Below, piece after piece: positions 40,363 through 61,996 of a stretch of DNA of 64,000 bases. The number at the start of each line of letters is the position of its first letter. Positions within the stretch are counted from its first letter, which is position 1. Both the position numbers and the translations under genes were made by a program. Origin of the DNA: an uncultured Alphaproteobacteria bacterium (GTDB lineage Bacteria > Pseudomonadota > Alphaproteobacteria > JAPOUT01 > G958296285); the NCBI GenBank assembly GCA_958296285.1, contig OY282459.1, positions 1,604,999-1,668,998 of the forward strand, read 5' to 3'. Below the pieces are notes generated by a model. It did no database searches and was not told the DNA's origin. It saw nothing but the letters and a program-made list of their open reading frames with translations.

Positions 40363-40381
40363 CGGGAGCATGTCAAGCCCG

Positions 40382-43563: not shown

Positions 43564-43670
43564 GGATTGTCTCCCTGTTTCTCTCCCTAGAATACAGCGA
43601 GCCTAGCGGTTTTCTCTCTGTCTCGCAACCATTCTTGCGATGCGGGGGGCGAGGCGGCAGGGTCATCTCG

Positions 43671-44499: not shown

Positions 44500-44539
44500 A
44501 GATCATGTCCATATGCTTACCCTTCTTGCATGAGATCAA

Positions 44540-44617
44540 GCGAGGCGGGGGGTCGGCGGGCGCAAGCCTGCGAGAAACCGCTCGTGGCGTAGCCTGCCTA
44601 CCCTCTTGCTCGCAGGA
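44540..44617. repeat. REP/MITE-like element, copy R6 (short)
   Basis: GGGGGGTCGGCGGGCGCAAGCCTGCGAGAA...CTCGTGGCGTAGCC...CTCTTGCTCGCAGG. Confidence 0.55.
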
Positions 44618-44618
44618 A

Positions 44619-45680: not shown

Positions 45681-45746
45681 TTTGCCTGCCCTCCAATGTT
45701 TCTAGCGGATATTCATTGTATTATATCCCCCGCTTCTCATTTATTC

Positions 45747-45970
45747 AAGCGAGCAGGGGGGTGCGGGGGGTGCGACACCCCCCGCGAAAAAACAAGGCGG
45801 GCATAGCCCGCCTATGACTCTTGCGAGCAGGGGGCGCGTGGGTGGGTCGCATTTGCTCGCTTCGCGTGCTTCGCTCGCAAATGCTTTTTTCCCACCCACC
45901 CACGCGCTTTCGGGGGGATTCCCCCGAACCCCCTTTTTTCAAGGGGGGCTAGCCCCCCTTGACCCCCCTT
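45747..45970. repeat. Composite REP/MITE-like element, copy R7 (extra GC hairpins + module D + hairpin + B palindrome)
   Basis: GGGGGGTGCGGGGGGTGCGACACCCCCCGCG; GGCGGGCATAGCCCGCC hairpin; CTCTTGCGAGCAGGGGGCGCGTGGGTGGGTCGC...CCCACCCACCCACGCGC (module D); TTCGGGGGGATTCCCCCGAA; CAAGGGGGGCTAGCCCCCCTTG. Confidence 0.7.
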
Positions 45971-45993
45971 TACGGGAGATTCAATCCTAGCCG

Positions 45994-46536
45994 TTAACGA
46001 TCTCGGCGCTCGCGGCGGCGCTCCTGCCACCTCTTACGCCTCTCGCCGATTTCCTCGCTCGCCTCGCCAAGAGCCTCAGCAAGCTCGCGCCGCTCCTCAA
46101 GACTCAAGCCTCCAAGAATATCCACGACATCGCCCCAGCCCCTCCGCAAAACGCGCTCGCCAGAATCCACAACCCGCGATTGCGCCCGATCCAAAATGGC
46201 GGCGGCAGCATCCTTATCAAACGACTCTTGCCGAAGCGCGGCGGCGAGATTCTTCAAAGCGCCCGCTGTCTCACGAGACGCCATATCGCGGAGGTCTCGC
46301 ATCTCGCCGCGCCGCGCCCTGAATTTCTTTCGGAGTTCCTTGCGCGCGTCATCAGGCACGGCATGGACAATGGCGCGCATCTCTCCGCCAAAGCCCCGAT
46401 GGGAGCCGATGCGGAAAGTCGCGTAAGCGCCAACGACAAAAAGATTGATCGCCAACGACACAATGAGTCCGCCAAGAATCCATTTCTGACGGCGTTCTTT
46501 TTTCCTCTGCGGATCTGCGGGATTGATGTCGGTCAT
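45994..46536 (-). CDS. Periplasmic Spy/CpxP-like protein (third gene of ECF sigma operon)
   Basis: N-terminal TM WILGGLIVSLAINLFVVGAYA, then a helical Arg/Glu-rich domain. Confidence 0.45.
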   Translation of the reverse strand: MTDINPADPQRKKERRQKWILGGLIVSLAINLFVVGAYATFRIGSHRGFGGEMRAIVHAVPDDARKELRKKFRARRGEMRDLRDMASRETAGALKNLAAALRQESFDKDAAAAILDRAQSRVVDSGERVLRRGWGDVVDILGGLSLEERRELAEALGEASEEIGERRKRWQERRRERRDR

Positions 46537-50617: not shown

Positions 50618-50791
50618 TTATGCGCCTGCGGCTTTTTTGAGCTGCGCCGAAGGCTTAAAGCGGAGGGTTTTAGAAACTTTGATTTGGATGGCTTCGCCCG
50701 TTTTCGGGTTTCGTCCCATTCTGGCGGCGCGATGGGCGATGGTGATTCCTCCGCCTTTGGAGACTTGCCGCGCGAAATCGGATTTGCTCAT
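50618..50791 (-). CDS. Short HU/IHF-family DNA-binding protein (57 aa, apparently N-terminally truncated); below the 60-aa ORF-track cutoff
   Basis: Reverse-complement translation MSKSDFARQVSKGGGITIAHRAARMGRNPKTGEAIQIKVSKTLRFKPSAQLKKAAGA contains the HU beta-arm signature RxARxGRNPxTGExIxI. An RBS GGGGAAACGAA precedes the ATG, and an in-frame TAG lies upstream. Confidence 0.45.
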   Translation of the reverse strand: MSKSDFARQVSKGGGITIAHRAARMGRNPKTGEAIQIKVSKTLRFKPSAQLKKAAGA

Positions 50792-50825: not shown

Positions 50826-51293
50826 TCATATTTTTCTTGATTTCGCAAGGATTGATGGTTTTTTTCGGTTTTTCGATTTTTTGGCGCGCCTGACGAAACG
50901 GAAGAAAACGGCGCTCCCAAAGATGAGGAGAAAAATCGGCGCGCTCCAGAGCGGGATTGTCGCGCCTGTGATTGGAGGTTTCAGGAGGATTGCTTCGCCA
51001 TATCGTCTGACGAGGAAGGCGAGGATTTGTTTTTCGGATTCTCCTCGCGCGATTTTTTTTCGTATGACTCTGCGGAGGTCAATAGCGAGGGGCGCTTCGG
51101 ATTGGGCGAGCGGCTGTCCTTGACAGACGAGACATTGGAGTTTGGCGATGATGTTTCGGGCGGTTTTTTCTTTTTCGGCGTTTGAGAGCGGCGCTTCGGC
51201 GCGGAGATTTTGGCGAGGATCGGGGGCGAGGGCGAGCGCGAGGGCGCTCGTCATGGCGATGGCGATTGGGAGAAATCGGGCGTTTTTTGTCAT
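50826..51293 (-). CDS. ccmH: Cytochrome c-type biogenesis protein CcmH/CycL
   Basis: LQCLVCQGQPLAQSEAPLAIDLR (LRCxxCQ heme-handling motif), signal/TM N-terminus. Start placed at MTKNARF (51293), which overlaps the ccmF stop. Confidence 0.8.
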   Translation of the reverse strand: MTKNARFLPIAIAMTSALALALAPDPRQNLRAEAPLSNAEKEKTARNIIAKLQCLVCQGQPLAQSEAPLAIDLRRVIRKKIARGESEKQILAFLVRRYGEAILLKPPITGATIPLWSAPIFLLIFGSAVFFRFVRRAKKSKNRKKPSILAKSRKI

Positions 51294-53191
51294 GGGGCGC
51301 GCCTGTGTTTTTTTCTGACGGCGGCGGCGAAGCCGCCGGCGGTCATAAGGATCGCGCCCAGCCATATGAGGGGCGCGAGGGGATTGAGATAAAGTTGGAT
51401 TTTTCTAGCCTCGCCCTTCCCTTTCGTGCCGAGAATGGCATGGAGATCGGCGAGCGGGTTCCACAATGTGGCGATAGCGGCTTCTTGGGTTATGGTTTCG
51501 CGGGCGATATAGTTTCGGGTTTCGGGGGCGAGAGACGCGATGCGCTCCCCATTTCGGCTGACATGGATTTCGGCGCGCCATGCGATATGGTCTTGTTCTT
51601 GGACGGGTTGGATATTTTTCAAGACGATCTCATATCCTGCGAAGCGGGTTTGTTGATTTGGGGCGAGATTGGCGATTTTCTGTCGCTGCGCGGCGCTTGT
51701 GGCGACAGCGCCGAGGATGAAGATTCCGAATCCGGCATGGGCGAGGGTCATTGGGATTCTCATTTTTCTCATAGGCGGGGGGTCGTCTAGGATTCTGCTG
51801 ATCGCGCCGGCGAGGATCCAGATTCCGAATCCCGCGCCGATTGCCGGGATGACGGTTTCGGGCGCGGCGAAGATTCCGACAAGTGTCGCGGCGGCGAGGG
51901 CGGCGAAGGCGGCGGCGGTCAGTCTCTGCAGAGCGCCGAGAGCGTCCGCTTTTTTCCAAGAGAGGTAGGGCGCGATGGGCATTAAGATGAGGATGGGGAT
52001 CATCAGCGGGAGGAAGGCGCGTTCAAAATAGGGCGGTCCTACGGAGATTCGCTCAATGCCGAGCGATTGGAGGATCGCGGGATAGATTGTTCCGATGAAG
52101 ATTGTCGCGCATCCGCATAGGAGGAAGAGGGCGTGGATAGAGATTGCGGTTTCGCGGCTGACGGCGGCGAAGTTGGTTTTGTTGCGGCTGTCGGCGAGTT
52201 TCTGCCACCTCGCGGACAGCGTTGCGAGCGCGCCGCAGAGGGCGGCGGCGAGGATTGCGAGGATGAAGGCTCCGCGGGCGGGGTCTTCGGCGAAATTATG
52301 GACGGAGATGAGGATTCCGGATCGCGTCAAGAATGTTCCGAAGACGCTGAAGGCGAAGGTAAGGATTGCGAGGCTTATTGTGAGGAAGAGGGCTGTGTGG
52401 TTTCTTTCGGTCATCATGCTCGCGTGGATGAGGGCTGTGGCGAGGAGCCAAGGCATGAGGGCGGCGTTTTCCACTGGGTCCCAGAACCAGAATCCTCCCC
52501 ATCCGAGTTCGCGATATGCCCACCAAGCGCCGAGGGCGATTCCTGCTGTGAGGAGCGCCCAAGTGATTTGGGCGCAGGATCGGATTGCGCGGATGCAGGG
52601 TTGGATGGCGTTTGTGTCGCCTGTCCAGAGGAGGGCGACGGCGTAGGAGAAGATGATGGAGGATCCGACATATCCTGCGTAGAGGATAGGGGGATGGATT
52701 GCGAGGGCGGGGTCTTGGAGGATGGGGTTGAGTCCGAGTCCTTGGAGAGGCGCGGGGTTGAGTCGGAGGAAGGGGTTTGAGGTTAGGATTGTGAAGGCGA
52801 GGAAGGTTGTGATGATTGCGGCTTGGATGGCGAGGGTTTTGATGGCGAGGTTTGGGTTTTCTTGATTTTTTCTGAATGCGGGGCTAGCGAAGATGGTGAG
52901 GAAGAGGATCCAGAGGATCATGGATCCTTCGTGGTTTCCCCAGAGGGCGGCGATTTTATAGGGGATGGGTTTTGTGGAGTGGGAGTGGAGGGTGACGATT
53001 TTGACGGAGAAATCGGATTGGATGAAGGCGCAGATGAGGGTGAGGGCGGCGGCGGTGATGAGGGTTAGTTGGGCGATTTGGATTTTTTGGGCGATTTGGA
53101 GTGGGGGATTTTTTGTGGCGCAGAGGATGATTTGCGCGATGGCGAGCGCGGTTGCGAGGGTTAGGGTAAAATGTCCGATTTCGGTGATCAT
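51290..53191 (-). CDS. ccmF: Cytochrome c-type biogenesis heme lyase subunit CcmF/CycK
   Basis: 633 aa polytopic membrane protein with the CcmF WWD-domain region (..GWGGFWFWDPVENAALMPWL..). Confidence 0.9.
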   Translation of the reverse strand: MITEIGHFTLTLATALAIAQIILCATKNPPLQIAQKIQIAQLTLITAAALTLICAFIQSDFSVKIVTLHSHSTKPIPYKIAALWGNHEGSMILWILFLTIFASPAFRKNQENPNLAIKTLAIQAAIITTFLAFTILTSNPFLRLNPAPLQGLGLNPILQDPALAIHPPILYAGYVGSSIIFSYAVALLWTGDTNAIQPCIRAIRSCAQITWALLTAGIALGAWWAYRELGWGGFWFWDPVENAALMPWLLATALIHASMMTERNHTALFLTISLAILTFAFSVFGTFLTRSGILISVHNFAEDPARGAFILAILAAALCGALATLSARWQKLADSRNKTNFAAVSRETAISIHALFLLCGCATIFIGTIYPAILQSLGIERISVGPPYFERAFLPLMIPILILMPIAPYLSWKKADALGALQRLTAAAFAALAAATLVGIFAAPETVIPAIGAGFGIWILAGAISRILDDPPPMRKMRIPMTLAHAGFGIFILGAVATSAAQRQKIANLAPNQQTRFAGYEIVLKNIQPVQEQDHIAWRAEIHVSRNGERIASLAPETRNYIARETITQEAAIATLWNPLADLHAILGTKGKGEARKIQLYLNPLAPLIWLGAILMTAGGFAAAVRKKHRRAP

Positions 53192-53225
53192 GGTTGTGTT
53201 TTGGGGCTATTGGGTTTTGAAGTAA

Positions 53226-53495
53226 AGGGGCGGCGAGCCGCCGCGGGCATCTTTGTCGCTGCCGCGACAGGCATCTTTTTCATAGACAGGCATTTTGGAT
53301 TTGCCCCAGGGGGAACTAAAGCATAGAAGCTGAAGGTGAAGGGGGGTCAAGGGGGGCTTGCCCCCCTTGAAAAACCAAGCGGGCGAAGCCCGCTATAGTC
53401 GGCGGGCGTGGCGCAACGAAGCAAGCGAGGCGAGCGTAGCGAGACGAGATTGCGAGAAGCCCGCCGACCCCCCTGCATCGCGTGAGCTCTTGCGT
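53226..53495. repeat. Composite REP/MITE-like element, copy R8 (modules A-B-hairpin-C-TIR)
   Basis: Module A with an internal 21-bp duplication (GTCGCTGCCGCGACAGGCATC); CAAGGGGGGCTTGCCCCCCTTG; GCGGGCGAAGCCCGC; GTCGGCGGGCGTGGCGCAACGAAGC...GCCCGCCGACCCCCCTGCATCGCGTGAGCTCTTGCG. Confidence 0.7.
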
Positions 53496-53551
53496 TATTG
53501 CCGAAACAGAAAAAAGCCTTTACAATCCATGCAACCGCGAGGAGATGAATC

Positions 53552-53809
53552 ATGAGTCTTGTAGCAGTCTATGACGCCCTCAAAGAGGCGAAAGTCAGCG
53601 ATCACAAAGCCACCGCCGCCATAGAAGCGCTGGAAACAAGCCTTGATGAGCCGTGGAAGCGGCGCATAGAAGAGCGTCTTACCAAAATAGAAATCTCTAT
53701 GGAAGCGCGTTTCGTTCGCCTTGAATGGATGTGCAGAGTGAATATGATTCTCATAAGCGTGTGTCTTGCCTTGCTGGTCGGCGTTCTGCTCCGCGCGATC
53801 CTCGCTTAA
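53552..53809 (+). CDS. DUF1640-like membrane protein, paralog 4 (85 aa)
   Basis: MSLVAVYDALKEAKVSDHKATAAIEALETSLDEPWKRRIEERLTKIE...RLEWMCRVNMILISVCLALLVGVLLRAILA. Embedded between repeat copies R8 and R9. Confidence 0.6.
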   Translation: MSLVAVYDALKEAKVSDHKATAAIEALETSLDEPWKRRIEERLTKIEISMEARFVRLEWMCRVNMILISVCLALLVGVLLRAILA

Positions 53810-53950
53810 AAGAGCTCTTGGCGTTGGGGGGTCGGCGGGCGTGGCGCAACGAAGCGGGCGCAGCGCGTAGCCACTCGTGGCGTAGCGCAAGCCCGCGAGA
53901 AGCCACTCGTGGCGTAGCCCGCCGACCCCCCCTGCTCGCAAGAGTCTTGA
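53810..53950. repeat. REP/MITE-like element, copy R9 with clear terminal inverted repeats
   Basis: AGAGCTCTTGGCGTTGGGGGGTCGGCGGGC ... GCCCGCCGACCCCCCCTGCTCGCAAGAGTCTTG. Confidence 0.7.
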
Positions 53951-54574
53951 TTATGATTCCTTCGTGATGTTGAGACTGTCTCTTTCTTTCAAATAGGCGA
54001 TCGCGTTTTTGAGAAAATTCTCGCCATTTTTGAATCTGCCAAGACCTGTATTGCAACTGTCGCAAATAAAATCACGGATGTTGCCTGTGTGATGATCGTG
54101 ATCGGCGACAATTTTCGCCGTGATTCCGACGATAGACCTCTTTTGACAAATCGGGCATTTGAAAGTTTCTCCTCGGCGAGGGCGATTTTTTTCCATCTTT
54201 TTTGCCTGACTGCTTTTGGGCGCGCGTTTGTCAATGTCTGTTCTGCACTTCACGCAGCTGGGACGGCGGACGATGCCGTGCTTATTGTTCTGGTTTCTAG
54301 CGAATTGGCTGACAGGCAGAAGGCAATGACAGATATTGCAGATTTTTTCTTTGTATTTATCGCCCGTTTTGAGGATATCCACCTCTTTGACTCCGCTTGC
54401 GGCGACAGTCCATGTTTCATTGCTGCCTATGAGCCAGACGACAAATTTATCGGCTTGGGTTTCTTGAATCAGTCCGATGGAGTTGGTTTTGAAGTTTCGG
54501 ATTCGCCTTTCCGGCGCGCCTCCTTCATGGAGATGCCCTGCGCCTTGGATGCAGGCGACCCACCTATGCGACAC
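53951..54574 (-). CDS. Endonuclease VII-like His-Me finger nuclease with Zn-ribbon Cys pairs; putative type II restriction endonuclease
   Basis: KIVADHDHHTGNIRDFICDSCNTGLGRF matches the HxDHDHxTGxxRGxLCxxCNxxLG endonuclease VII / Hpy99I-type motif. CNICHC, CVKC, CPIC Cys pairs. 11-nt overlap with the upstream methyltransferase. Confidence 0.55.
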   Translation of the reverse strand: MSHRWVACIQGAGHLHEGGAPERRIRNFKTNSIGLIQETQADKFVVWLIGSNETWTVAASGVKEVDILKTGDKYKEKICNICHCLLPVSQFARNQNNKHGIVRRPSCVKCRTDIDKRAPKSSQAKKMEKNRPRRGETFKCPICQKRSIVGITAKIVADHDHHTGNIRDFICDSCNTGLGRFKNGENFLKNAIAYLKERDSLNITKES

Positions 54575-55382
54575 GGACGCAGCTCCGCAGCCTTTGTTTT
54601 GCGAGCTGGATATAGTCCTCCGAAATATCCACGCCGATATATTCGCGGCGGTTCAAGAGAGCCATCTTGCAGCTCGTGCCGGATCCGCACATTGGATCAA
54701 AGACGAGCTCGCCTTCATTTGTCCATGAGAGGATGTGATCCTCGGCCAATTTTTCGGGGAACACGGCAGGATGTTGGAAGGCGATTCTGTCCGATGTCGT
54801 TCCGCCCATTCCGACGGCATAAGACCATATGTTGGTTTTGGTCTTTTCTTTTTTGAGCTCTTTAAGGTTTTTTCTATTGACCGCGTCTGATCCCTTATTA
54901 TAGACGACCATTTCAAAGCCATGTCGGACTGTTTTCTCTTTGAGGGGGTTGAAGGTCTTCGGACTGCCTTTGCTCAAGACGAACATAAATTCAAAGGCGT
55001 TGGTATAGGCGTTGCTTCGCATGAAGGGCGTATTTTTTTTCTGATAGATCATGGTGTCATGCATGCTGAATCCTATTTTTTGGAAATAGAGTCCTTGTCT
55101 AAAGCTTGTGAGGCTGCGTCCTCCGTTGATGCGGTCTCCGACGATCCATACGACGATGCCGCCTTCCGCGGTTATTCTATAGAGTCCGTTGGCGATTTCG
55201 TGGAAGTTGAATTGATAGCCTTTATAGTCGCGGAGCGAATCGTAAGGAGGGGAGGTTATGGTGAGATCCACGCATCCGCGAGGCATAGATTTCATAAAAT
55301 CCACGCAGTCTGCCGTGAAGAGTCCGCGCGGTGATTGTTTTTCCTCAAAGAGGGGGCGGTTTTGCGTTTCGGGCGGGTTCAT
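54564..55382 (-). CDS. DNA amino-methyltransferase (beta-class N4-cytosine/N6-adenine, SPPY motif)
   Basis: Motif IV DLTITSPPYDSLRDY precedes motif I DPMCGSGTS (beta permutation). 272 aa. Confidence 0.85.
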   Translation of the reverse strand: MNPPETQNRPLFEEKQSPRGLFTADCVDFMKSMPRGCVDLTITSPPYDSLRDYKGYQFNFHEIANGLYRITAEGGIVVWIVGDRINGGRSLTSFRQGLYFQKIGFSMHDTMIYQKKNTPFMRSNAYTNAFEFMFVLSKGSPKTFNPLKEKTVRHGFEMVVYNKGSDAVNRKNLKELKKEKTKTNIWSYAVGMGGTTSDRIAFQHPAVFPEKLAEDHILSWTNEGELVFDPMCGSGTSCKMALLNRREYIGVDISEDYIQLAKQRLRSCVRVA

Positions 55383-55451
55383 GGACAGGTTTCGCTTTTT
55401 GTTCTCCGAATCGCTTTATTTTACAATCCTATTTTTAGAGGTAAAGGGCAG

Positions 55452-55545
55452 TTGGGGGGGTCGGCGGGCTTCCTCGCAGGCTCGCGCTACGCGCTTCGCT
55501 CGCAAGTGCTTTTTCCTACCCTACCCCCGCGCTTCGCGCTGCTTG
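55452..55545. repeat. REP/MITE-like element, copy R10 (overlaps 3-prime end of the methyltransferase-HNH gene)
   Basis: TTGGGGGGGTCGGCGGGCTTCCTCGCAGGCTCGCGCTACGCGCTTCGCTCGCAAG... Confidence 0.55.
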
Positions 55546-56990
55546 ATCCATCCTTTATCTGTAAGACATTTGAGCAGATATTCCTGCGACTTTACGCCCT
55601 TGAGCCTGTTGCATGAACCGCATAGAAGTTGCAGGTTGCTGATGTGATCGGTTCCGCCTTTGCTTCGCGGGATGATGTGGTCTGTTTCTAGATTCTGCAT
55701 TTGGAAGTGCTGCCCGCATCCGTTGCAGTAGCCGCCTTGCTCGCCATAGAGCAGTTTTTTGTTTTCAGGACTGTTATATTTTTTCGGGATCTCGATGTCC
55801 GTGCGTTTTGGTATATCGGTGCGCCGAATACATTGATAAAACAAGCCCAGTTCATTTTTCAGGCGATCATCAACCAAGTCGGCGGCTTTGGACGAGATAT
55901 CAATGCCAATCCATTCCCGCTGTTTGTTTTCAGCGGCGATGCATGCGGTGGCGCACCCGCAGAATGGATCAAACACAATATCCCCCGAGTTGCTAGACGC
56001 CATGACAATGCGCTCCACCAGCTTCAACGGTTTCTGCGTGGGGTAATGCGTATTTTCTTTAGAAGAGGCGCTTAACGGAGGAATATCGGTCCACAGATTC
56101 GGGGGTTTTTGCCCTTGGTCAGGCGCGAGATAGCGTTTGAGGTTTGGAAAACCATCTTTCCCCGGATGATGGATTAAATCGTGTTTATCCAAGAAATCTA
56201 GCCGGTCATGCACGCCTCTTATGGCGAGGTAACCAGGGGCTAAAACCTTATCAATATATTTGGCATATTCCCCGCTTTTGGGGACAGACCAATGCCTGCC
56301 GCCATAGTTGGAAGGATTGTATCCCTTCCAGGGTCGTCCTGACTCGCCTGAACTAGTCTCCGCCCCCGTCAAGTCGCCCGTTCGATAAACACCTCGCTTG
56401 TCTTTGTGACGGTAATATTTTTTTACATATTCAGAATTAAGAGGCAGGCGGTTCGCAGGGACATCTTTGGGACTTGCCCCATAAAACAGAATAGAATCGG
56501 TTATCCTTCCGAACACCTTGTCGTTATGAGCAGATGTGCGCTGCCACGTAATCTCACCCTGAAACTTATTGCTCCCAAAAATGCAGTCCATTAAGAGTTT
56601 TAAGTAATGGCTGGCTGTGGAGTCGCAGTGCAGATAGATTGAGCCCGTTGCTTTAAGTATGCGCCGCATTTCAATAATGCGAATAACCATGTAGATCAGA
56701 TATGCCATCATGGAATCGCTGTGTCCTTCGCGCACAGCTGAAAGCAGAGAATACAGGGTTGGATTCTCATGTTTGATGATTCCATGCCAAGCGAGGCTGA
56801 TATCGTTCAACCCCCATGTGTCCTTGAATTCGGCGCCTGCAGCTTGGCTGCCAATCGGCGCGGCATAATTGGCGTTGGAATTGAAGGGGGGGTCTAGATA
56901 AATCAGGTCAACCGAGGCGCTGTTCATGCCCCGCATGATGTCAAGGTTGTCGCCCGTCCAAAGCGTGCGGTTTTTCCAATTGGGAGGCAT
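55521..56990 (-). CDS. DNA N6-adenine methyltransferase fused to a C-terminal HNH endonuclease domain
   Basis: Motif IV DLIYLDPPFNSN, motif I DIVFDPFCGCATACIAA, then C-terminal HNH CNGCGQHF...DHIIPRSKGGTDHISNLQLLCGSCNRLKG. Confidence 0.85.
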   Translation of the reverse strand: MPPNWKNRTLWTGDNLDIMRGMNSASVDLIYLDPPFNSNANYAAPIGSQAAGAEFKDTWGLNDISLAWHGIIKHENPTLYSLLSAVREGHSDSMMAYLIYMVIRIIEMRRILKATGSIYLHCDSTASHYLKLLMDCIFGSNKFQGEITWQRTSAHNDKVFGRITDSILFYGASPKDVPANRLPLNSEYVKKYYRHKDKRGVYRTGDLTGAETSSGESGRPWKGYNPSNYGGRHWSVPKSGEYAKYIDKVLAPGYLAIRGVHDRLDFLDKHDLIHHPGKDGFPNLKRYLAPDQGQKPPNLWTDIPPLSASSKENTHYPTQKPLKLVERIVMASSNSGDIVFDPFCGCATACIAAENKQREWIGIDISSKAADLVDDRLKNELGLFYQCIRRTDIPKRTDIEIPKKYNSPENKKLLYGEQGGYCNGCGQHFQMQNLETDHIIPRSKGGTDHISNLQLLCGSCNRLKGVKSQEYLLKCLTDKGWIKQREARG

Positions 56991-57104
56991 AGCCCGTTCT
57001 CTATCGGCGAATCAGCAGTGATGTTCATTTTAAAGCTAGAAAATCTTTAAAGCTAGGAAATCTTGAAATTAGAGGGAAGGCTAAAAAACAATTCTAGGCG
57101 CACG

Positions 57105-57368
57105 CGATGCAGGGGTGTCGGCGGGCTTTCTGCTTACAAGAGCTCTTGCGAACAGGGGGGTCGGCGGGCTTCTCGCGGGCTTGCGCTACGCGCTACGCCC
57201 GCTTCGTTGCGCCACGCCCGCCGACTATAGCGGGCTTCGCCCGCTTGGTTTTTCTTGGGGGGCTAGCCCCCCAAACCCCCCTTCACCTTCAGCTTCTATG
57301 CGTTAGTTCCCCTGCGGCAAAAACACATGCCTATCCATGAAAAAGATGCCTGTCGCGGCAGCGACCTC
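57105..57368. repeat. Composite REP/MITE-like element, copy R11 (TIR-C-hairpin-B-A reverse)
   Basis: CAAGAGCTCTTGCGAACAGGGGGGTCGGCGGGC...GCCACGCCCGCCGAC; GCGGGCTTCGCCCGC; CTTGGGGGGCTAGCCCCCCAA; then the reverse-complement module A, as in copy R1. Confidence 0.7.
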
Positions 57369-57790
57369 TAAGGCAAGTCAGGAGGCCTATAATTCTCGTC
57401 ATGCTTGGCGAGCAAAATCTCCGCCTCAAAAATCCCATCGCCCCGAAACCGCCCCTCCGCAATAACCCCCTGACCCTCCCGAAAAAGCGCCGGCGGCAAC
57501 CCCCCAAACCAAACCTCAACATCATGAACAAAATCCGTCAAAACAAAAACCACGCGCCCCCCATCACGCGCCACGCTGCGCGGACGAACATATCCGCCAA
57601 GCCGAATCCTCTGCCCCTCCAGAGGCGGCTCGGCAACCAGCTGCGCCGGCGTCCTGTAATAAGAAACGCCATCCTCCAACGCGGCGAGAATAAGCGCGAC
57701 CGCCCCGCCCAAAAGCGCGAGAGCAAAAACAAGACCAACAGCGCGGCGAGCGGAAGAACGCATGACGCCCATATCGCGCGAAACCCCCAT
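57368..57790 (-). CDS. ccmE: Cytochrome c maturation heme chaperone CcmE/CycJ
   Basis: N-terminal TM GLVFALALLGGAVALILAAL, OB-fold body, C-terminal heme-binding LLAKHDENYRPPDLP (His in HDENY). The true start is probably the internal Met (MRSSARRAV, ~57763). Confidence 0.85.
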   Translation of the reverse strand: MGVSRDMGVMRSSARRAVGLVFALALLGGAVALILAALEDGVSYYRTPAQLVAEPPLEGQRIRLGGYVRPRSVARDGGRVVFVLTDFVHDVEVWFGGLPPALFREGQGVIAEGRFRGDGIFEAEILLAKHDENYRPPDLP

Positions 57791-57796
57791 AAAAGT

Positions 57797-58744
57797 CTAG
57801 AGATTCATTTCAGCGCGAGTCGCAGGCCCCACAATCCCATCGGCGATAAGCCCGCGCTCCCTCTGAAAAAGAAGAACGGCGTCTCGGAGAGTCTCGTCAA
57901 AGACATCCCTTTTCGCGCCCGCCCCCCTCACGCCGGCGCGGAGAAGAGCGTCAGCGACAAGCGCGACCGCTTCGCCTTTGATAGGAGGCGCGGTCAGGCG
58001 GAGAAGCGGCGGCGCGTCATCAGCATGGACGGGAACAGGAGGTCTCGCCGCGAGAACATGCTTGTCAATGCGCTGTCCTCTGAGGATGATCGGCAGTTCC
58101 AGCGCCCAATCGCCGTTCTCCGCCATGCGATGAAAAGCGCGCATCCGATAGGCGGTGTAGCGCAAAATGCGATTGGAATGATCGGCGAGCCATCTGCGCC
58201 TCTCGGCGATATAGGCGCCGATCCACGGTCTCGCGCCGATCATCTCGGGCGCGCCGTGTTTTTCGGAGACGGCGCGGGCGATTCTCCGCCAAGATCCATG
58301 AATAAAACTGTCATAGATGACGGCGTAAGCGAGAGGGTCTTTCATGCCGAGTTTGAGGGCGGCGCGACATGCGGGCTGCCAATAGAGCCGATCCAGCAAT
58401 CCGTCTTGGCAGAGATGCATGACGGGATCGCCTCCCGCGGCTCTGAGCAGATTGCGGAAGGCGGGATCGTCATTGAGGGCGCTGTCGGATTTTTCCAAGA
58501 AGGGGAGATAGGTTGTCAGTTTTTTCGCGCAAAGAGCGTCTTCTTGGCTTGCATAGTTTCGGATGAGGAGATAGAGCGAGCCTGAGGTTAGAGAAAATTG
58601 GGCGCGTCCGAAACTGATTCCGCCGCGATCGCCGGCGGCGACAGTGACTTGAGCGTAATCGGGACGCGCTTTGCCCGTTTCAAAGATATTGACGATGGCT
58701 TGGATCGCGCGTTTTTGGATCGTGTTGGGCGTGGGGTTTTTCAT
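57797..58744 (-). CDS. Glycoside hydrolase family 46 (chitosanase)-like domain fused to a C-terminal peptidoglycan-binding domain
   Basis: N-terminal ..ARPDYAQVTVAAGDRGGISFGRAQFSLTSGSLYLLI..KKLTTYLPFLEKS resembles the GH46 DGRGYTxGxAGFTTxTGD...YLPxL core. C-terminal ALLRAGVRG..FDETLRDAVLLFQRERGLIADGIVGPATRAEM is a PG_binding_1-type domain. Confidence 0.55.
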   Translation of the reverse strand: MKNPTPNTIQKRAIQAIVNIFETGKARPDYAQVTVAAGDRGGISFGRAQFSLTSGSLYLLIRNYASQEDALCAKKLTTYLPFLEKSDSALNDDPAFRNLLRAAGGDPVMHLCQDGLLDRLYWQPACRAALKLGMKDPLAYAVIYDSFIHGSWRRIARAVSEKHGAPEMIGARPWIGAYIAERRRWLADHSNRILRYTAYRMRAFHRMAENGDWALELPIILRGQRIDKHVLAARPPVPVHADDAPPLLRLTAPPIKGEAVALVADALLRAGVRGAGAKRDVFDETLRDAVLLFQRERGLIADGIVGPATRAEMNL

Positions 58745-58792: not shown

Positions 58793-59470
58793 TTATTTTT
58801 GGTTTTCCCCCTGCCTTTTGATTTGGCGGATAGTTTGAGAGAGTTCTCGTCTTTGGGGCGAGTCTTTTGGGAATTGGTTGAGGAGTTTTTGCCAGAGTTT
58901 TTGGGCTTTGTCGTGGCGCTGTTCCTGATGGGCGGCGAGGGCGAGGAACCATAGGGCGCGGAGATTTTTGGGATTTTTTTCTTGGGCGCGTTCTAGGAGG
59001 TTTCGGGCTTCTTGGGTGATGGTTCCGTCGGCGCGTTCTGTGATGGCTTCGGCGAGGGCGGAGAGGATAGGCGCGGTTTCTTTTATGGCTGCGGCTCTTC
59101 GGAAAGCGTATTCGGCTTGGGCGTATTGTTCTTGCTGCAATCGGATAAGTCCGAGGATTTCCCATCCTTTTTGGTCTCGGGGTTTTTTGGCGAGTTGGTT
59201 TTCTATTCGGGCGGCGAGGGCGTTAGGGGGGAGATTTTGCGGTTTGCCTTTGATGCGCTCGGCGAGGGGTTGGTCGGGCAGATGGGGCGATCCGACCGCG
59301 AGATAGATTGCGATGGCGGCGATTGGGGTAAAGACGGCGATTGCGAGGATTGCGTGGGTGAAGGCGTTTGTTTTTTTGGCGTTGCGGAAGGCGAAGCCGA
59401 GCGCCGCGGCGGTGATAACAGCGAAGATTGCGAAGAGAAGGAAGAGGTTCATTTGGGCGGATATTTTCAT
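58793..59470 (-). CDS. ccmI: Cytochrome c-type biogenesis protein CcmI/CycH (TM + TPR)
   Basis: Two N-terminal TM helices (LFLLFAIFAVITAAALGFAF; ILAIAVFTPIAAIAIYLAV), then TPR-like helical repeats. Confidence 0.7.
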   Translation of the reverse strand: MKISAQMNLFLLFAIFAVITAAALGFAFRNAKKTNAFTHAILAIAVFTPIAAIAIYLAVGSPHLPDQPLAERIKGKPQNLPPNALAARIENQLAKKPRDQKGWEILGLIRLQQEQYAQAEYAFRRAAAIKETAPILSALAEAITERADGTITQEARNLLERAQEKNPKNLRALWFLALAAHQEQRHDKAQKLWQKLLNQFPKDSPQRRELSQTIRQIKRQGENQK

Positions 59471-59658
59471 TGATTCGGATTGTCCAGCGTTGAGGATAGT
59501 CTTTATGGGGTTTGTTTTGGAAGGGTCTCATTGCGGGGCGCTTTTAGGGGAGCGGATGAGATTGGACGCTTCCGCGCCCAGCCCGTCATTTGAATCTATA
59601 CTATGAGGTCAGACGCTTGATTCGTTCATCGTCCGAGTTTCAAAGTTTGGAAAGCGCC

Positions 59659-60897
59659 ATGGCTGAAAAGAAGCGGCAGATTCCCCATCAGACGATTTTT
59701 ACTGGTGATAATCTGGACATCATGCGCGGCATGGATAGCGAGAGCATTGATCTCATCTATCTTGATCCGCCCTTTAATTCCAACCGCCATTATAAAGCGC
59801 CGATTGGCTCAAAGGCGGCGGGGGCTCAGTTCAAAGACGCATGGACGTTTGAGGACACGAAAGCCGCCTGGTGGGGTCTGATCGCCGATGAGCAGCCCGC
59901 GCTTTACAAGCTCATTGACACGGTGGGCGAGATCGGCAATGAGGGCGACAAAGCCTATCTCATTTACATGGCGATGCGCCTTTTGGAAATGCGCCGCATT
60001 CTGAAAGAGACGGGCAGCATTTATCTTCATTGCGATCCCACTATGAGTCATAGCCTCAAAATGGCTATGGATGCGCTGTTCGGACGCAAGAATTTCAGAA
60101 ACGAGATCGCTTGGTGCTATACGGGGCCCGGCAAAACCAAGAGCTGGTTCCCTCGCAAGCACGACATTATTCTGTTTTACGGCGCAAGCGACGGGGCCGC
60201 GTTTCGGTCGGATTCGGTGAGAGTGCCGTATAAGCAGCTCAACATACAGCACAGAGAGCGGCAAGAAACGGGCATAGGGGGAAAGCTTACGTCAGGCAAT
60301 ATCGATCTATACAAAGAACGAGGCAAAATCCCGGAGGATTGGTGGTCAGACATATCACCTGTCGGCAGGATAAAGAAGGAGCGCACAGGCTATCCCACGC
60401 AGAAGCCTTTGGCGCTGTTGCGGCGCATTATCCTTGCCTCCAGCCATGCCGGGGACATGGTGCTAGACCCATTTTGCGGCTGCGCGACTGCCTGCATCGC
60501 GGCGGAGGAATTGTCCCGCCAATGGATAGGAATTGATCTCTCGCCCTTGGCGGCGAAACTCGTTAAACAGCGCATGAAAAACGAGCTTGACCTCCTTACC
60601 TATAAAGATCTCATGCATAGGCATGACATTCCGCGGCGAAGCGATCAGATCACGAAGCCGTCTAGGAACATCAACCACATTCTTTTTGGCGAGCAGGAGG
60701 GCAGATGCAATGGCTGCCGCCATTCTTTTCCGTTCCAGAATTTCACCCGCGATCATATTATTCCCACCGACAAGGGCGGCGCGGACACGGACGACAATCT
60801 GCAGCTTCTGTGCGCGCGCTGCAATTCCATCAAGGGCAGTCGCCCGATGGAATATCTGATCGCTCAGCTGAAAAAAGACGGCACGATAGCAAGATGA
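59659..60897 (+). CDS. DNA N6-adenine methyltransferase-HNH endonuclease fusion, paralog of 55521-56990
   Basis: DLIYLDPPFNSN, DMVLDPFCGCATACIAA, C-terminal CNGCRHSF...DHIIPTDKGGADTDDNLQLLCARCNSIKG. Same domain order and many identical blocks as the 55521 gene. Start placed at MAEKKRQIPHQ; the tracked start is 59590. Confidence 0.85.
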   Translation: MAEKKRQIPHQTIFTGDNLDIMRGMDSESIDLIYLDPPFNSNRHYKAPIGSKAAGAQFKDAWTFEDTKAAWWGLIADEQPALYKLIDTVGEIGNEGDKAYLIYMAMRLLEMRRILKETGSIYLHCDPTMSHSLKMAMDALFGRKNFRNEIAWCYTGPGKTKSWFPRKHDIILFYGASDGAAFRSDSVRVPYKQLNIQHRERQETGIGGKLTSGNIDLYKERGKIPEDWWSDISPVGRIKKERTGYPTQKPLALLRRIILASSHAGDMVLDPFCGCATACIAAEELSRQWIGIDLSPLAAKLVKQRMKNELDLLTYKDLMHRHDIPRRSDQITKPSRNINHILFGEQEGRCNGCRHSFPFQNFTRDHIIPTDKGGADTDDNLQLLCARCNSIKGSRPMEYLIAQLKKDGTIAR

Positions 60898-61406
60898 GAG
60901 AGATTTCGCGGGGTAAAGGTGATATAATTATCGGCGCGTTTTTGGTTTTTTGGGGGGCGAGTCTGATGGGCTATATTGACGAAACTTTGGGGAGCGATGA
61001 GAAGATTCTTCACCCTGTGGAGTTTCATTGGACGCACATGTTCGTAGCATACTGCTATCTGCTCATAGCGGTTGCATCTCTACTTATGCTGTCTGTCTCT
61101 CCTTTTGCATTGATTTTCTTTGTCAGCGGAATCCTCCTTTTTATCTATCGGACGATCCAATACTATTCCACGGAGAGAGCTTTGACGAACCGGCGCGTCA
61201 TTCAGAAGAAAGGTTTTATAGCGCGGAAGGTAGAGAACATTTCGTTGCAGAAGATTGAGGAGGCGAATTTATCGCAGTCAATCCAGGGAAGGCTCCTTGG
61301 TTATGGCACTGTGCGTCTTTCGGGGACAGGCATAGGTAAGATCGTTCTTAAAGACATTGACGATCCTCTAAAGTTCATGAAGTCTCTGAATGACGCGCGG
61401 CTGTGA
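60894..61406 (+). CDS. Bacterial PH-domain (bPH_2/DUF304-like) membrane protein
   Basis: ATGA overlap with the methyltransferase-HNH stop. Two TM helices (IIIGAFLVFWGASLMGY; FALIFFVSGILLFIY), then RRVIQKKGFIARKVENISLQKIEEANLSQSIQGRLLGYGTVRL is the YdbS/YdbT-type bPH fold. Confidence 0.55.
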   Translation: MREISRGKGDIIIGAFLVFWGASLMGYIDETLGSDEKILHPVEFHWTHMFVAYCYLLIAVASLLMLSVSPFALIFFVSGILLFIYRTIQYYSTERALTNRRVIQKKGFIARKVENISLQKIEEANLSQSIQGRLLGYGTVRLSGTGIGKIVLKDIDDPLKFMKSLNDARL

Positions 61407-61993
61407 GATTGAAGAAAGAGCGCGCTATGCGGGAAATGATTCATTCTTTCTGCGAAAGAATCAAAGAAGACGAAATAGAGATATACAATGAGTTCAGTCT
61501 TCAACATGAACTTGGCATTTTTCTGAGGCGCTCTCTTCCCAAACTTCTTGTTCAATTTGAGCGTAACGTTTCATATTTTGGATTCTCAAAAGGGAATTTT
61601 AAGAAAAAGGAAATGGACATCTCTATTTTTGACAGAAAAAGCGCCTCCCCCGATTTGCATTGCGCGATAGAGTTGAAATTTCCTAGAAATGGTCAATATC
61701 CAGAGCAAATGTATAGTTTCTGCAAAGACATCGTTTTTCTTGAGCAACTGAGAAAAGCAGGCTTTCAGAAAGCATGTCTCGTCATATTCGCTGATGACTA
61801 TGGCTTTTATGAAGGTCAGGGAGAAGGCATATATGGATATTTCAGAAAAGGCGTTCCTCTTCATGGAACAATAGAGAAGCCCACCGGTTCAAAGAGCCAT
61901 GAGGTGCATATCAGCGGAACCTACGAGGTAAAGTGGAATCAAGTCAAAAATTCTCTTTTCTACTCCGTGATAGAAACAGATGTTGCGCGCTAG
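61403..61993 (+). CDS. Hypothetical protein, possible PD-(D/E)xK nuclease fold
   Basis: ATGA overlap with the upstream gene. ..DISIFDRKSASPDLHCAIELKFP.. gives D-(x)n-E-x-K spacing. AT-richer. Confidence 0.35.
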   Translation: MRLKKERAMREMIHSFCERIKEDEIEIYNEFSLQHELGIFLRRSLPKLLVQFERNVSYFGFSKGNFKKKEMDISIFDRKSASPDLHCAIELKFPRNGQYPEQMYSFCKDIVFLEQLRKAGFQKACLVIFADDYGFYEGQGEGIYGYFRKGVPLHGTIEKPTGSKSHEVHISGTYEVKWNQVKNSLFYSVIETDVAR

Positions 61994-61996
61994 AGA

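What the first reader, a model, noticed from the sequence alone, without database searches (positions are those of the whole stretch)
53192..57367. cycHJKL (ccmI-ccmE-ccmF-ccmH) cytochrome c maturation operon is split by a 4.2-kb insertion carrying repeats, a DUF1640 gene, an R-M pair and a methyltransferase-HNH fusion
The genes ccmI (58793-59470), ccmE (57368-57790), ccmF (51290-53191) and ccmH (50826-51293) are all on the minus strand in the canonical cycHJKL order. However, ccmE and ccmF are separated by 53192-57367. This stretch contains three REP/MITE-like copies, the plus-strand DUF1640 paralog, the endonuclease VII-like nuclease plus SPPY methyltransferase, and the methyltransferase-HNH gene. 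ccmF and ccmH must now be expressed from a promoter inside or at the edge of the insertion. This is a clear example of the repeat family delivering defence cargo into an essential operon.
Basis: partly seen in the sequence, partly recalled or inferred. Interest (0 to 1): 0.65.

Follow-up and report, generated by a model that had tools for sequence, protein, structure and literature searches.

The report
Repeat-bounded defence island splits ccm operon
A 4.1-kb block of restriction-modification genes, bounded by inverted copies of a palindromic repeat, sits between two cytochrome c maturation genes that are adjacent in relatives; the insertion is ordinary, but the native DNA beside this and every similar repeat pair shows a mirror-image distortion of base composition that suggests long-term single-strand exposure.

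Summary
ccmI, ccmE, ccmF and ccmH are correctly identified. ccmE and ccmF lie 4.2 kb apart here, against 0-44 bp in four more distant relatives.

The insert (about 53227-57365) is composite. Two strain-level relatives carry only a 2.5-kb version, with an Hpy99I-type restriction-modification pair and an 85-aa gene. The 1.7-kb methyltransferase-HNH cassette is specific to this genome, and its breakpoints lie in two direct copies of a 49-nt repeat module.

The island is bounded by about 270-bp inverted copies of a dispersed palindromic repeat. I found no target-site duplication and no recombinase.

The unexpected result is compositional. ccmE has a mirror-image strand composition although it is native and not inverted. 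At all seven clearly bounded inverted repeat pairs examined, in three loci of two genomes, the left flank is G+T-enriched and the right flank G+T-depleted, fading over about 1 kb. This does not depend on cargo, gene orientation or the sign of the local background skew. On both sides the G+T-rich strand is the one running 5'->3' into the element. I infer chronic 3'-tailed single-strand exposure. That inference is untested.

The parts
50826..51293 (-). ccmH (cycL). The ORF could also start at 51365.
   Evidence: PF03918, E 7e-38. LQCLVC motif present. Third-position strand bias is native.
51290..53191 (-). ccmF (cycK). It is intact. Its 5' 600 nt form the G+T-enriched left flank of the island.
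   Evidence: PF16327 and PF01578. WWD motif present. Third-position keto skew is -0.7 to -0.9 on the coding strand. Left-flank z = +3.6.
53192..53226 (.). Remnant of the native ccmE-ccmF spacer, possibly extending to 53236.
   Evidence: The sequence up to about 53236 is invariant in the window, L087 and L088, although L088 has a different repeat variant beyond it. L081 has a 44-bp spacer.
53227..53507 (+). Left arm: a '+' copy of the dispersed modular palindromic repeat, head outward. It carries an outward-facing terminator-like hairpin (53394-53378 on the minus strand).
   Evidence: 87% identical to the reverse complement of 57137-57365. Aligned with other copies. Terminator-like site found.
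53552..53809 (+). 85-aa coiled-coil protein with a C-terminal hydrophobic segment, function unknown. The family is specific to this clade.
   Evidence: No family hit. Paralogues lie at 42767-43213 and 43321-43563. All 17 homologues come from this clade.
53810..53949 (+). Internal repeat copy separating the small gene from the R-M pair.
53951..54574 (-). Type II restriction endonuclease, an Hpy99I homologue (beta-beta-alpha-Me fold).
   Evidence: PDB 3fc3, E 2e-47, covering residues 23-198. PADLOC REase_II, E 4e-50. PF18275 and PF02945.
54564..55382 (-). Beta-class N4/N6 DNA methyltransferase (SPPY), overlapping the nuclease gene by 11 nt. It is the presumed cognate methylase.
   Evidence: PF01555, E 2e-38. 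PADLOC MTase_II and oMTase. SPPY at residue 44.
55455..55534 (-). Repeat module, a direct copy of 57155-57202. It is one breakpoint of the strain-specific cassette.
   Evidence: (family D2), and alignment A2.
55476..57154 (-). Cassette of about 1.68 kb present only in this genome. It carries the MTase-HNH gene and is absent from L087 and L088.
   Evidence: BLAST and the junction alignment. Third-position skew is about 0, the least ameliorated part of the island.
55521..56990 (-). Beta-class DNA methyltransferase (DPPF) fused to a C-terminal HNH nuclease.
   Evidence: PF01555 and PF01844. Motifs checked. At least 8000 homologues share the architecture. 52-60% identical to the paralogue at 59590-60897 outside the middle region.
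57093..57365 (-). Right arm: a '-' copy of the repeat, head outward, ending 2 nt from the ccmE stop codon. It carries an outward-facing terminator-like hairpin (57229-57245 on the plus strand).
   Evidence: As single-stranded DNA it folds to -64.5 kcal/mol, z = -2.8.
57368..57790 (-). ccmE (cycJ). It is intact and of native lineage, but has a mirror-image strand composition.
   Evidence: PF03100. HDENY motif present. Closest relative is L081, as for its neighbours. Plus-strand third-position GC skew is -0.46 and AT skew +0.96, against about +0.6 and -0.5 in native genes.
57366..58450 (.). Right-flank gradient. Skew rises from mirrored at the island edge to native by about 1.2 kb, running through ccmE and GH46.
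57797..58744 (-). GH46-like + PG_binding_1 gene, ancestral between ccmI and ccmE.
   Evidence: PF01374 and PF01471. Same position in L081, L082 and L083 and in L002, L005 and L037.
58793..59470 (-). ccmI (cycH).
   Evidence: PF23914, E 2e-21.
59575..61996 (+). Second insertion, between grx and ccmI, without the repeats. It carries the MTase-HNH paralogue (59590-60897), a bPH_2 protein and an unknown ORF.
   Evidence: Pfam. L081 has grx and ccmI 94 bp apart. The insertion is present in L087 and L088. No flanking repeats found.

Best explanation
The stretch between ccmE and ccmF is a composite island. It sits at a site bounded by inverted, head-outward copies of a dispersed, modular, hairpin-rich repeat that resembles REP/REPIN/BIME elements.

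The older layer is shared with two strain-level relatives. It is an Hpy99I-type Type II restriction-modification pair plus a small membrane-anchored coiled-coil gene. The younger layer is found only in this genome. It is a 1.7-kb cassette encoding a beta-class methyltransferase fused to an HNH nuclease, lying between two direct copies of a 49-nt repeat module.

Cargo is gained, lost and exchanged by recombination at the repeat copies. This is inferred from the breakpoints. It does not look like classical transposition of the whole unit.

The ccm genes themselves are intact. How ccmF and ccmH are transcribed is unknown. The candidates are read-through across the co-oriented cargo or a promoter near the left arm.

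The mirror-image composition of ccmE is not a sign of foreign origin or inversion. It is one instance of a footprint that flanks every repeat pair examined.
For: Empty sites:
- L081, L082 and L083 have GH46-ccmE-ccmF-ccmH-(hu)-glnE with ccmE-ccmF gaps of 20-44 bp.
- In L084, ccmE overlaps ccmF.
- By the script's criterion (HSP-to-HSP gap <=300 nt) 47 of 84 loci have ccmE directly upstream of ccmF. Reading the same table at <= about 600 nt gives 57 of 84.

Composite structure:
- L087 and L088 are 96-99% identical to the window in native genes. They hold a 2.46-2.50-kb island without the MTase-HNH gene.
- The junction falls in the repeat module that is present once in those strains and twice, as direct copies, here.

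Cassette turnover:
- The site between the Metal_resist gene and the acyl-CoA dehydrogenase genes (ACAD) carries Mrr_cat here, a different 339-aa gene in L087 and a PDDEXK_4/HSDR_N_2 gene in L088. The right-hand repeat is shared with L087; its state in L088 was not checked.

Architecture:
- Where both boundaries carry a copy (window I1, I2 and I4; L089 s1 and s2; L090 sA), the left copy is '+' and the right copy is '-'. Island I0 has a copy only at its right boundary. The '+' copy of I3 (44560-44617) lies inside the interval.

Cargo identity.

CGWCG avoidance:
- CGWCG is 3-fold under-represented: 51 observed against 166 +/- 13 expected, and O/E 0.31 under a Markov model, while CGSCG has O/E 1.06.

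Cargo composition:
- Cargo skew is near zero, against strongly skewed native genes.
Against: - No target-site duplication of 5 bp or more at the junctions.
- No transposase, integrase or RAYT (the transposase that moves REPINs) in the 64-kb window. The agent of movement is therefore unidentified.
- The cassette polymorphism could equally be a deletion between direct repeats in the ancestor of L087 and L088.
- The two arms are no more similar to each other (87%) than to copies elsewhere (86-90%). They are therefore not a recent duplicate pair.
- A repeat pair without cargo exists (L089 16546-16860). The repeats therefore do not need cargo and may simply mark recombination-prone sites.
- Activity of the enzymes and transcription of ccmFH are untested.
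Confidence: 0.75

Rival explanations
1. The intervening genes are ancestral: the operon was always interrupted in this lineage.
For: The 2.5-kb core of the island is shared by three strain-level genomes.
Against: The four next-closest relatives have adjacent ccmE and ccmF, as do most alphaproteobacterial loci. The cargo lacks the host's strand bias.
Confidence: 0.02
2. The whole 4.1-kb unit is a single transposon-like element. Its long terminal inverted repeats are mobilised in trans, and it inserted in one step.
For: It has inverted arms of about 270 bp, head outward. R-M units flanked by inverted repeats with empty-site evidence are documented (PMC2853133).
Against: There is no target-site duplication. 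The unit exists in 2.5-kb and 4.1-kb forms whose breakpoint is an internal repeat. The arms are not unique to the unit but belong to a high-copy family. No transposase was found in the window.
Confidence: 0.1
3. The repeats are passive colonists of intergenic DNA, like REPINs. They arrived after the cargo. The cargo entered by unrelated routes, and the association is coincidental or reflects permissive sites.
For: A repeat pair without cargo sits between trpG and trpE. The second MTase-HNH island (59575-61996) has no repeats. MTase-HNH homologues in other genomes are solitary genes without such repeats.
Against: Cargo polymorphisms between strains break exactly at repeat copies. Five of the six compositionally foreign segments in the window carry a repeat copy at one or both boundaries.
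Confidence: 0.2
4. ccmE and the other mirrored flanks were imported by recombination from a relative in which these loci lie in the opposite orientation to replication.
For: The mirrored composition looks like that of a native leading-strand gene. CcmE is of the same lineage as its neighbours.
Against: All seven paired sites, and the right flank of I0, have the same polarity. Skew changes as a smooth gradient of about 1 kb rather than a step, running through the uninterrupted GH46 ORF. The opposite flank is enhanced rather than mirrored. The pattern is present at a cargo-free pair and in loci whose background skew is of either sign.
Confidence: 0.08
5. The flank footprint comes from replication. 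Forks pause at the hairpin-rich repeats, which prolongs exposure of the lagging-strand template behind the fork. The leading strand is then reprimed downstream, which leaves a gap on the other strand.
For: The sign and the kilobase length scale fit. The repeats form stable hairpins.
Against: The two flanks reach similar absolute levels whatever the sign or size of the local background skew (+0.24 in the window, about 0 in L089, about -0.15 in L090). This fits a symmetric process better than two different fork-related processes. The model is not excluded.
Confidence: 0.25

Closest known systems
[quoted passage not shown]
   Same: R-M genes lie between inverted repeats, and a related genome has the empty site. 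In some of the published cases only part of the system lies between the repeats.
   Different: The published clear cases have short repeats (26-65 bp) that are unique to the unit, with 8-bp target duplications. Here the arms are about 270 bp and belong to a high-copy family. There is no duplication, and cassettes are nested.
Hpy99I restriction-modification system (CGWCG; PDB 3fc3/3gox; PMC2699513)
   Same: The nuclease aligns over its full length with Hpy99I (E 2e-47), including the Cys4 zinc motifs and the catalytic region. A methyltransferase gene lies next to it and overlaps it. CGWCG is depleted in the window.
   Different: The host is an alphaproteobacterium. Specificity and activity were not tested. 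I did not compare the methylase class with that of M.Hpy99I.
REP / REPIN / BIME-type palindromic repeats (PMC3116915, PMC3337134)
   Same: They are short, non-coding, intergenic, hairpin-forming and multi-copy. They occur as inverted doublets; L089 16546-16860 is a back-to-back doublet.
   Different: The units are larger and modular (150-280 bp per arm). Doublets can enclose 1-4 kb of genes. No RAYT transposase was seen in the sequence available. No Rfam family matches.
Type IIC single-chain restriction-modification enzymes (PMC4081073)
   Same: Methyltransferase and nuclease domains are in one polypeptide, and the gene stands alone in other genomes.
   Different: Most Type IIC enzymes have an N-terminal PD-(D/E)XK nuclease and a gamma-class methylase. 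This protein has an N-terminal beta-class methylase and a C-terminal HNH domain. I found no characterised member in the literature I could search.
cycHJKL / ccmIEFH operon of rhizobia
   Same: Same genes, same order, same strand.
   Different: This clade has an extra GH46/PG-binding gene between ccmI and ccmE. In this species there are two insertions, grx|ccmI and ccmE|ccmF.
Palindrome-induced chromosome breaks (SbcCD/RecBCD in E. coli; PMC6061781, PMC3315005) and strand-coordinated mutation of resected single strands at breaks (yeast work, from my own knowledge)
   Same: The inferred footprint has the geometry expected of 3' tails on both sides of a break at a palindromic element.
   Different: Here it is an evolutionary compositional footprint, not an observed break. 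No nuclease, break or resection has been shown.

Membership tests
System I cytochrome c maturation cluster (ccmI-ccmE-ccmF-ccmH) | CcmF with the WWD motif and the CcmF_C domain | tested here: met
   PF01578 and PF16327. WGGFWFWDPVEN at residue 231.
System I cytochrome c maturation cluster (ccmI-ccmE-ccmF-ccmH) | CcmE domain with the haem-binding His in HDENY; CcmH with a CxxC motif; CcmI with a TPR domain | tested here: met
   PF03100, PF03918 and PF23914. HDENY at residue 130 and LQCLVC at residue 52.
System I cytochrome c maturation cluster (ccmI-ccmE-ccmF-ccmH) | Contiguous, co-transcribed operon | tested here: not met
   ccmE and ccmF are 4.2 kb apart, and GH46 lies between ccmI and ccmE. 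Transcription cannot be tested here.
Type II R-M system, Hpy99I family | Nuclease homologous to Hpy99I over its full length | tested here: met
   3fc3, E 2e-47, residues 23-198 aligned to 22-198. PADLOC REase_II, E 4e-50.
Type II R-M system, Hpy99I family | Adjacent cognate DNA methyltransferase | tested here: met
   The N6_N4_Mtase gene overlaps the nuclease gene by 11 nt. That it is the cognate methylase is inferred.
Type II R-M system, Hpy99I family | Recognition and cleavage of CGWCG | not testable with these tools
   Indirect only: CGWCG has O/E 0.31 while CGSCG has 1.06.
Type IIC (single-chain) R-M enzyme | Nuclease and methyltransferase in one polypeptide | tested here: met
   PF01555 and PF01844 in one 489-aa ORF. 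DPPF and the HNH motifs are intact.
Type IIC (single-chain) R-M enzyme | Usual architecture: N-terminal PD-(D/E)XK nuclease + gamma-class methylase | tested here: not met
   N-terminal beta-class methylase with a C-terminal HNH domain.
Transposon-like R-M unit (Furuta et al. 2010) | Terminal inverted repeats | tested here: met
   Arms 53255-53492 and 57137-57365, 87% identical over 238 nt.
Transposon-like R-M unit (Furuta et al. 2010) | Short target-site duplication matching the empty site | tested here: not met
   No direct repeat of 5 bp or more at the junctions. Only a displaced AAGG 4-mer.
Transposon-like R-M unit (Furuta et al. 2010) | Repeats unique to the unit | tested here: not met
   At least 11 copies or fragments in the 64-kb window, and more in L089 and L090.
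REP/REPIN-like repeats | Short non-coding palindromic units, multi-copy, intergenic, occurring as inverted doublets | tested here: met
   (doublet at L089 16546-16860).
REP/REPIN-like repeats | Associated RAYT (tyrosine HUH transposase) in the genome | not tested
   None found in the window. The rest of the genome was not available.
DUF1640 (PF07798) | Match to the Pfam model | tested here: not met
   No hit for 53552-53809 even at E<=10, nor for its two window paralogues at E<=1. One distant paralogue (P0258) has a precomputed PF07798 hit.

The most novel reading that the evidence does not exclude
Inverted pairs of this palindromic repeat are sites of chronic outward 5'->3' resection, starting from recurrent breaks or nicks. 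Over evolutionary time this has rewritten the composition of about 1 kb of native genes on each side, amino-acid content included. On both sides the strand running 5'->3' into the element is G+T-rich. The effect overrides the genome's own replication-linked strand bias. If so, a gene such as ccmE can look 'inverted' or 'foreign' by skew while being neither. These genomes would then carry a readable fossil record of where their DNA is habitually single-stranded.
Probability: 0.45. Interest if true: 0.8.

Novelty: new variant of a known kind. Interest (0 to 1): 0.6.

Why it matters
The insertion itself adds one more case of restriction-modification genes lodged inside a housekeeping operon. It comes with unusually clean comparative evidence: empty sites, a 2.5-kb form and a 4.1-kb form. 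It shows cassette exchange at repeat copies among near-identical strains.

The flank footprint matters more.
- If it is a mutational record of single-strand exposure around palindromic repeats, it links a class of bacterial repeats to a specific DNA transaction.
- It offers a sequence-only way to map that transaction.
- It warns that local skew anomalies, routinely read as inversions or horizontal transfer, can arise in place.

Tried and rejected
- **Source genome.** It could not be fetched by exact protein look-up. Close strains were reached instead through the protein cluster.
- **The one genome-contig scan.** These were useful for synteny statistics but not as close outgroups.
- **Repeat 25-mer in metagenome contigs.** No match. 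The repeat core is also absent from the 86 loci held at that point, apart from one chance hit.
- **Rfam and tRNA scans.** Nothing in or near the island, only a tmRNA at 11.3 kb. There is therefore no tRNA-type integration site.
- **Target-site duplication.** None found.
- **Recombinase.** Pfam, PADLOC, NCBIfam and PHROGs scans of the larger window ORFs found none.
- **Phage and plasmid collections.** They match only the methylase part of the fusion, at about 40% identity. No vector was identified.
- **Polarised substitution spectrum among the three strains.** Underpowered, with 29 changes in the right flanks. Transitions were not significant. The only hint is C>A:G>T of 5:0 in right flanks against 4:18 elsewhere (Fisher p = 0.0016).
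- **Promoter scan.** No sigma-70-like site for ccmF. This is not informative for an alphaproteobacterium.
- **Rejected explanations for the mirrored ccmE.**
  - Foreign origin: the closest relative is L081, as for its neighbours.
  - Local inversion: the ORFs are contiguous and co-oriented.
  - A property intrinsic to the gene: ccmE matches ccmF in L084 and shows no consistent shift in L081-L083.
  - Transcription or R-loop bias: flank genes on the plus strand behave the same.

Full report
**1. What is at the coordinates**

- ccmH: 50826-51293, or 51365 if the longer ORF is used.
- ccmF: 51290-53191.
- ccmE: 57368-57790.
- ccmI: 58793-59470.

The diagnostic motifs are intact: WGGFWFWDPVEN in CcmF, HDENY in CcmE and LQCLVC in CcmH.

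Between ccmF and ccmE lie four genes:
- An 85-aa plus-strand ORF (53552-53809).
- A 207-aa His-Me/Endonuclease_7 nuclease (53951-54574).
- A 272-aa N6_N4 methyltransferase with SPPY (54564-55382). It overlaps the nuclease gene by 11 nt.
- A 489-aa N6_N4 methyltransferase (DPPF) with a C-terminal HNH domain (55521-56990).

**2. Is it an insertion?**

The one genome-contig scan returned only relatives at 44% identity or less. A protein search found closer ones.

- L081 (CcmF 57% identical) has the order grx-ccmI-GH46-ccmE-ccmF-ccmH-hu-glnE. Its ccmE-ccmF spacer is 44 bp.
- L082 and L083 have GH46-ccmE-ccmF-ccmH-glnE with 20-bp gaps.
- In L084, ccmE overlaps a ccmF-ccmH fusion.
- Across 84 loci, the script counted 47 with ccmE directly upstream of ccmF on the same strand, at an HSP-to-HSP gap of 300 nt or less. 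My reading of the table at about 600 nt or less gives 57. The exceptions are mostly Rhodobacterales.

The GH46 gene is therefore ancestral in this clade, and the 4.2-kb stretch is not. All six native proteins, CcmE and GH46 included, have L081 as their best relative at similar identity.

**3. Anatomy of the insert**

It is bounded by inverted copies of a repeat: 53227-53507 and 57093-57365, 87% identical over 238 nt. Further copies or fragments lie at 53810-53949 and 55455-55534. Elsewhere in the window they lie at 24604-24785, 27840-27993, 28651-28838, 38415-38578, 40213-40368, 44560-44617 and 45826-45978.

The family is modular and rich in hairpins. Examples are GGGGGGCTAGCCCCCC, GGGCGAAGCCC, and GTCGGCGGGC...GCCCGCCGAC spanning about 75-107 nt. 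Each arm carries a terminator-like hairpin that faces outward from the island.

The right arm ends 2 nt from the ccmE stop codon. The left arm starts 35-45 nt upstream of the ccmF ATG. The remaining native spacer is thus comparable with L081's 44 bp.

Other checks:
- No direct repeat of 5 bp or more flanks the unit.
- No transposase or integrase was found in the window.
- No tRNA or Rfam element is nearby.

**4. Cargo**

*Nuclease and methylase.* The nuclease is a full-length homologue of the structurally solved Hpy99I (3fc3, E 2e-47; PADLOC REase_II, E 4e-50). Hpy99I recognises CGWCG (PMC2699513). CGWCG occurs 51 times in the window, against 166 +/- 13 in dinucleotide-preserving shuffles. Under a third-order Markov expectation its O/E is 0.31, while CGSCG is at 1.06. 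This fits long exposure to such an enzyme, but specificity was not measured.

*Methyltransferase-HNH fusion.* It belongs to a very large family with the same two-domain architecture. There were 8000 hits at the candidate cap, and the listed top hits are 55-70% identical over the full length. In other genomes the gene stands alone. A paralogue at 59590-60897 is 52-60% identical in the catalytic parts and differs in the middle region. I assume that region is the target-recognition region. Most Type IIC enzymes combine a PD-(D/E)XK nuclease with a gamma-class methylase (PMC4081073). This architecture differs, and I found no characterised member.

*The 85-aa ORF.* It has no family match. Its 17 detectable homologues are confined to this clade. 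One of them carries a precomputed PF07798 hit, which is the only support for 'DUF1640'.

**5. Strain-level comparison**

The CcmF cluster contains two further assemblies. L087 comes from a 1.72-Mb contig and L088 from a 104-kb contig. Both are 96-99% identical to the window in native genes.

Both have an island between ccmE and ccmF, but it is only 2.46-2.50 kb long. It runs repeat, methylase, Hpy99I-like nuclease, repeat, 85-aa gene, repeat.

The MTase-HNH cassette (window about 55476-57154) is absent from both strains. The junction lies inside the 49-nt repeat module, which is single in those strains and duplicated in direct orientation here (55455-55503 and 57155-57202). The cassette also has the least host-like third-position composition of the island. 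I therefore favour gain in this genome, although deletion between the direct copies cannot be excluded.

At another repeat-bounded site, between the Metal_resist gene and the acyl-CoA dehydrogenase genes (ACAD), the three strains carry three different nuclease-like genes. The right-hand repeat copy is shared with L087; its state in L088 was not checked.

The second MTase-HNH island, between grx and ccmI, is present in all three strains and absent from L081. It has no repeats.

**6. Expression of ccmF and ccmH**

The three large cargo genes are co-oriented with the operon, so read-through is conceivable. However, the left arm presents a canonical-looking hairpin plus T-run to minus-strand transcripts just before ccmF.

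L088 has a different left-arm variant that lacks the repeat 'head'. Only the 45 nt upstream of ccmF are common to all three strains. No sigma-70-like site was found there.

**7. The compositional anomaly**

The window has a strong strand bias that does not depend on gene orientation. Plus-strand third-position GC skew is about +0.55 to +0.86, and AT skew about -0.4 to -0.76. In 500-nt windows over 1-22 kb, G+T ('keto') skew is +0.24 +/- 0.05 and never falls below +0.08.

The cargo is near zero. ccmE is the mirror image (-0.46 and +0.96), and its first and second codon positions are shifted too.

The change is a smooth gradient. Going from the island edge through ccmE and GH46, plus-strand third-position keto skew runs about -0.8, -0.7, -0.4, -0.3, -0.1, 0, +0.2, +0.4. 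It reaches +0.7 in ccmI. On the other side, the first 600 nt of ccmF are more skewed than the background.

**8. The anomaly is general**

Every repeat-bounded interval in the window shows the same picture:
- Right flanks: -0.06 to -0.33, z of -6 or lower. These cover orf24817, the TenA-family gene, ACAD, the Metal_resist gene and ccmE.
- Left flanks: enhanced, +0.30 to +0.52.

The three right-flank genes that can be compared with L081 (ccmE, ACAD and the Metal_resist gene) are syntenic there. The pooled third-position profile rises monotonically from -0.54 to +0.6-0.7 over about 1.4 kb. The repeat-free island at 59.6-62.0 kb has no mirrored flank.

Using paralogues of the 85-aa protein, I fetched two other loci of the L087 genome. 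L089 has a background skew of about 0. L090 has a background skew of about -0.15, opposite in sign to the window, which suggests the other chromosome arm. The same footprint appears at each clearly bounded inverted repeat pair:
- L089 8546-9929, with flank genes on the plus strand: +0.40 on the left and -0.16 on the right. The mgtE 5' end reaches -0.48.
- L089 16546-16860: +0.43 and -0.38. This is two inverted copies back to back, with no cargo, between trpG and trpE.
- L090 2559-4322, with flank genes on the plus strand: +0.34 and -0.27.

A second island in L090, from about 10.4 to about 15.5 kb, shows the same signs. Its right-hand repeat copy was not detected, so I left it out of the pooled analysis.

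Pooled over the seven sites, per 200 nt:
- Left flank: +0.42, +0.41, +0.37, +0.27, +0.24, +0.20...
- Right flank: -0.32, -0.19, -0.15, -0.14, -0.03, +0.04...

The footprint is therefore tied to the repeat pair. It does not depend on cargo, gene orientation or the sign of the local background skew. Stated without reference to strand labels: on each side, the strand that runs 5'->3' into the element is G+T-rich.

**9. Interpretation of the footprint (inference)**

The genome-wide bias has the direction usually ascribed to deamination of exposed single strands (C>T and A>G), which is established knowledge about strand asymmetry. The local footprint has the same character but switches strand across the element.

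The geometry is that of 3'-ended single strands left by 5'->3' resection outward from a break, or a pair of nicks, at the element. Palindromes are known to be cleaved by SbcCD and repaired from the sister chromosome in E. coli (PMC6061781, PMC3315005). REPIN-type doublets are thought to be handled by HUH transposases (PMC3116915). Neither was tested here.

Status of the alternatives:
- A fork-pausing and repriming model also gives the right signs. It fits less well with the similar absolute levels reached on both sides under backgrounds of +0.24, about 0 and about -0.15.
- Import from a differently oriented relative is rejected (see the rival explanations).
- Local inversion is rejected.
- Transcription or R-loop bias is rejected.
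- Recent substitutions among the three strains are too few to settle the matter.

**10. Verdict**

The reported split of the ccm operon is real and is an insertion. It is a nested, repeat-bounded restriction-modification island, a known kind. It is not a one-step delivery, and no transposition hallmarks were found.

ccmE, although native, has a mirrored composition. That observation led to a reproducible footprint around every inverted repeat pair examined, and I have not seen such a footprint described.

Noticed in passing
window 50618-50791 (-): The HU-family gene downstream of ccmH has an in-frame 111-nt internal deletion (57 aa against 94 aa in L087, L088 and L081). The deletion lies between short direct repeats (ATCACCAACGCC and TTCACCATCGCC) and probably inactivates the protein.
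   Followed up: partly
window 59575-61996: A second insertion without repeats lies between grx and ccmI (94 bp apart in L081). It carries a paralogous MTase-HNH gene (59590-60897, +), a bPH_2 membrane protein and an unknown ORF. It is present in L087 and L088 with length variants of the fusion (412 and 480 aa).
   Followed up: partly
window 42767-45978; L087 17372-20482; L088 17393-19495: The site between the Metal_resist gene and the ACAD genes carries different cargo in the three near-identical strains. Here the cargo is Mrr_cat, DUF5678-like and aspartyl-protease-like genes plus two small paralogues. L087 has an unrelated 339-aa gene in place of Mrr. L088 has a PDDEXK_4/HSDR_N_2 gene.
   Followed up: partly
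whole window: Several 5-bp palindromes are strongly avoided (Markov O/E): GTWAC 0.18, GGWCC 0.21, GTSAC 0.21, CGWCG 0.31 and CCWGG 0.50. This suggests a history of several restriction systems.
   Followed up: no
window 28831-29526 (-), 40382-41680 (-), 45994-46536 (-), 24817-25953 (-): The TenA-family gene, the second acyl-CoA dehydrogenase, the Metal_resist gene and an unknown ORF each have a mirrored or neutral strand composition at the end that abuts a repeat copy, like ccmE.
   Followed up: yes
L089 16546-16860 (L087 genome): A cargo-free inverted doublet of the repeat sits inside the trp operon, between trpG and trpE. It has a full-strength skew footprint on both sides.
   Followed up: partly
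window 1-9324: A set of mutually similar plus-strand ORFs and repeats (for example 1093-1979, 3675-6818 and 7093-8033) has no Pfam match. It appears to be a paralogous gene family of unknown function.
   Followed up: no
window 11262-11639 (+): A two-piece (permuted) alphaproteobacterial tmRNA gene with tag peptide ANDNYADARLAA.
   Followed up: no
L088 about 7100-7540: ccmE in L088 carries a frameshift near its 5' end, and the gene caller reported an antisense ORF instead. It may be an assembly error or a real pseudogene.
   Followed up: no
window 38574-39683 (-): A 369-aa protein with an HSDR_N-like nuclease domain is the only large gene in the repeat-bounded island between anmK and the ACAD genes. 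It has no PADLOC match.
   Followed up: no
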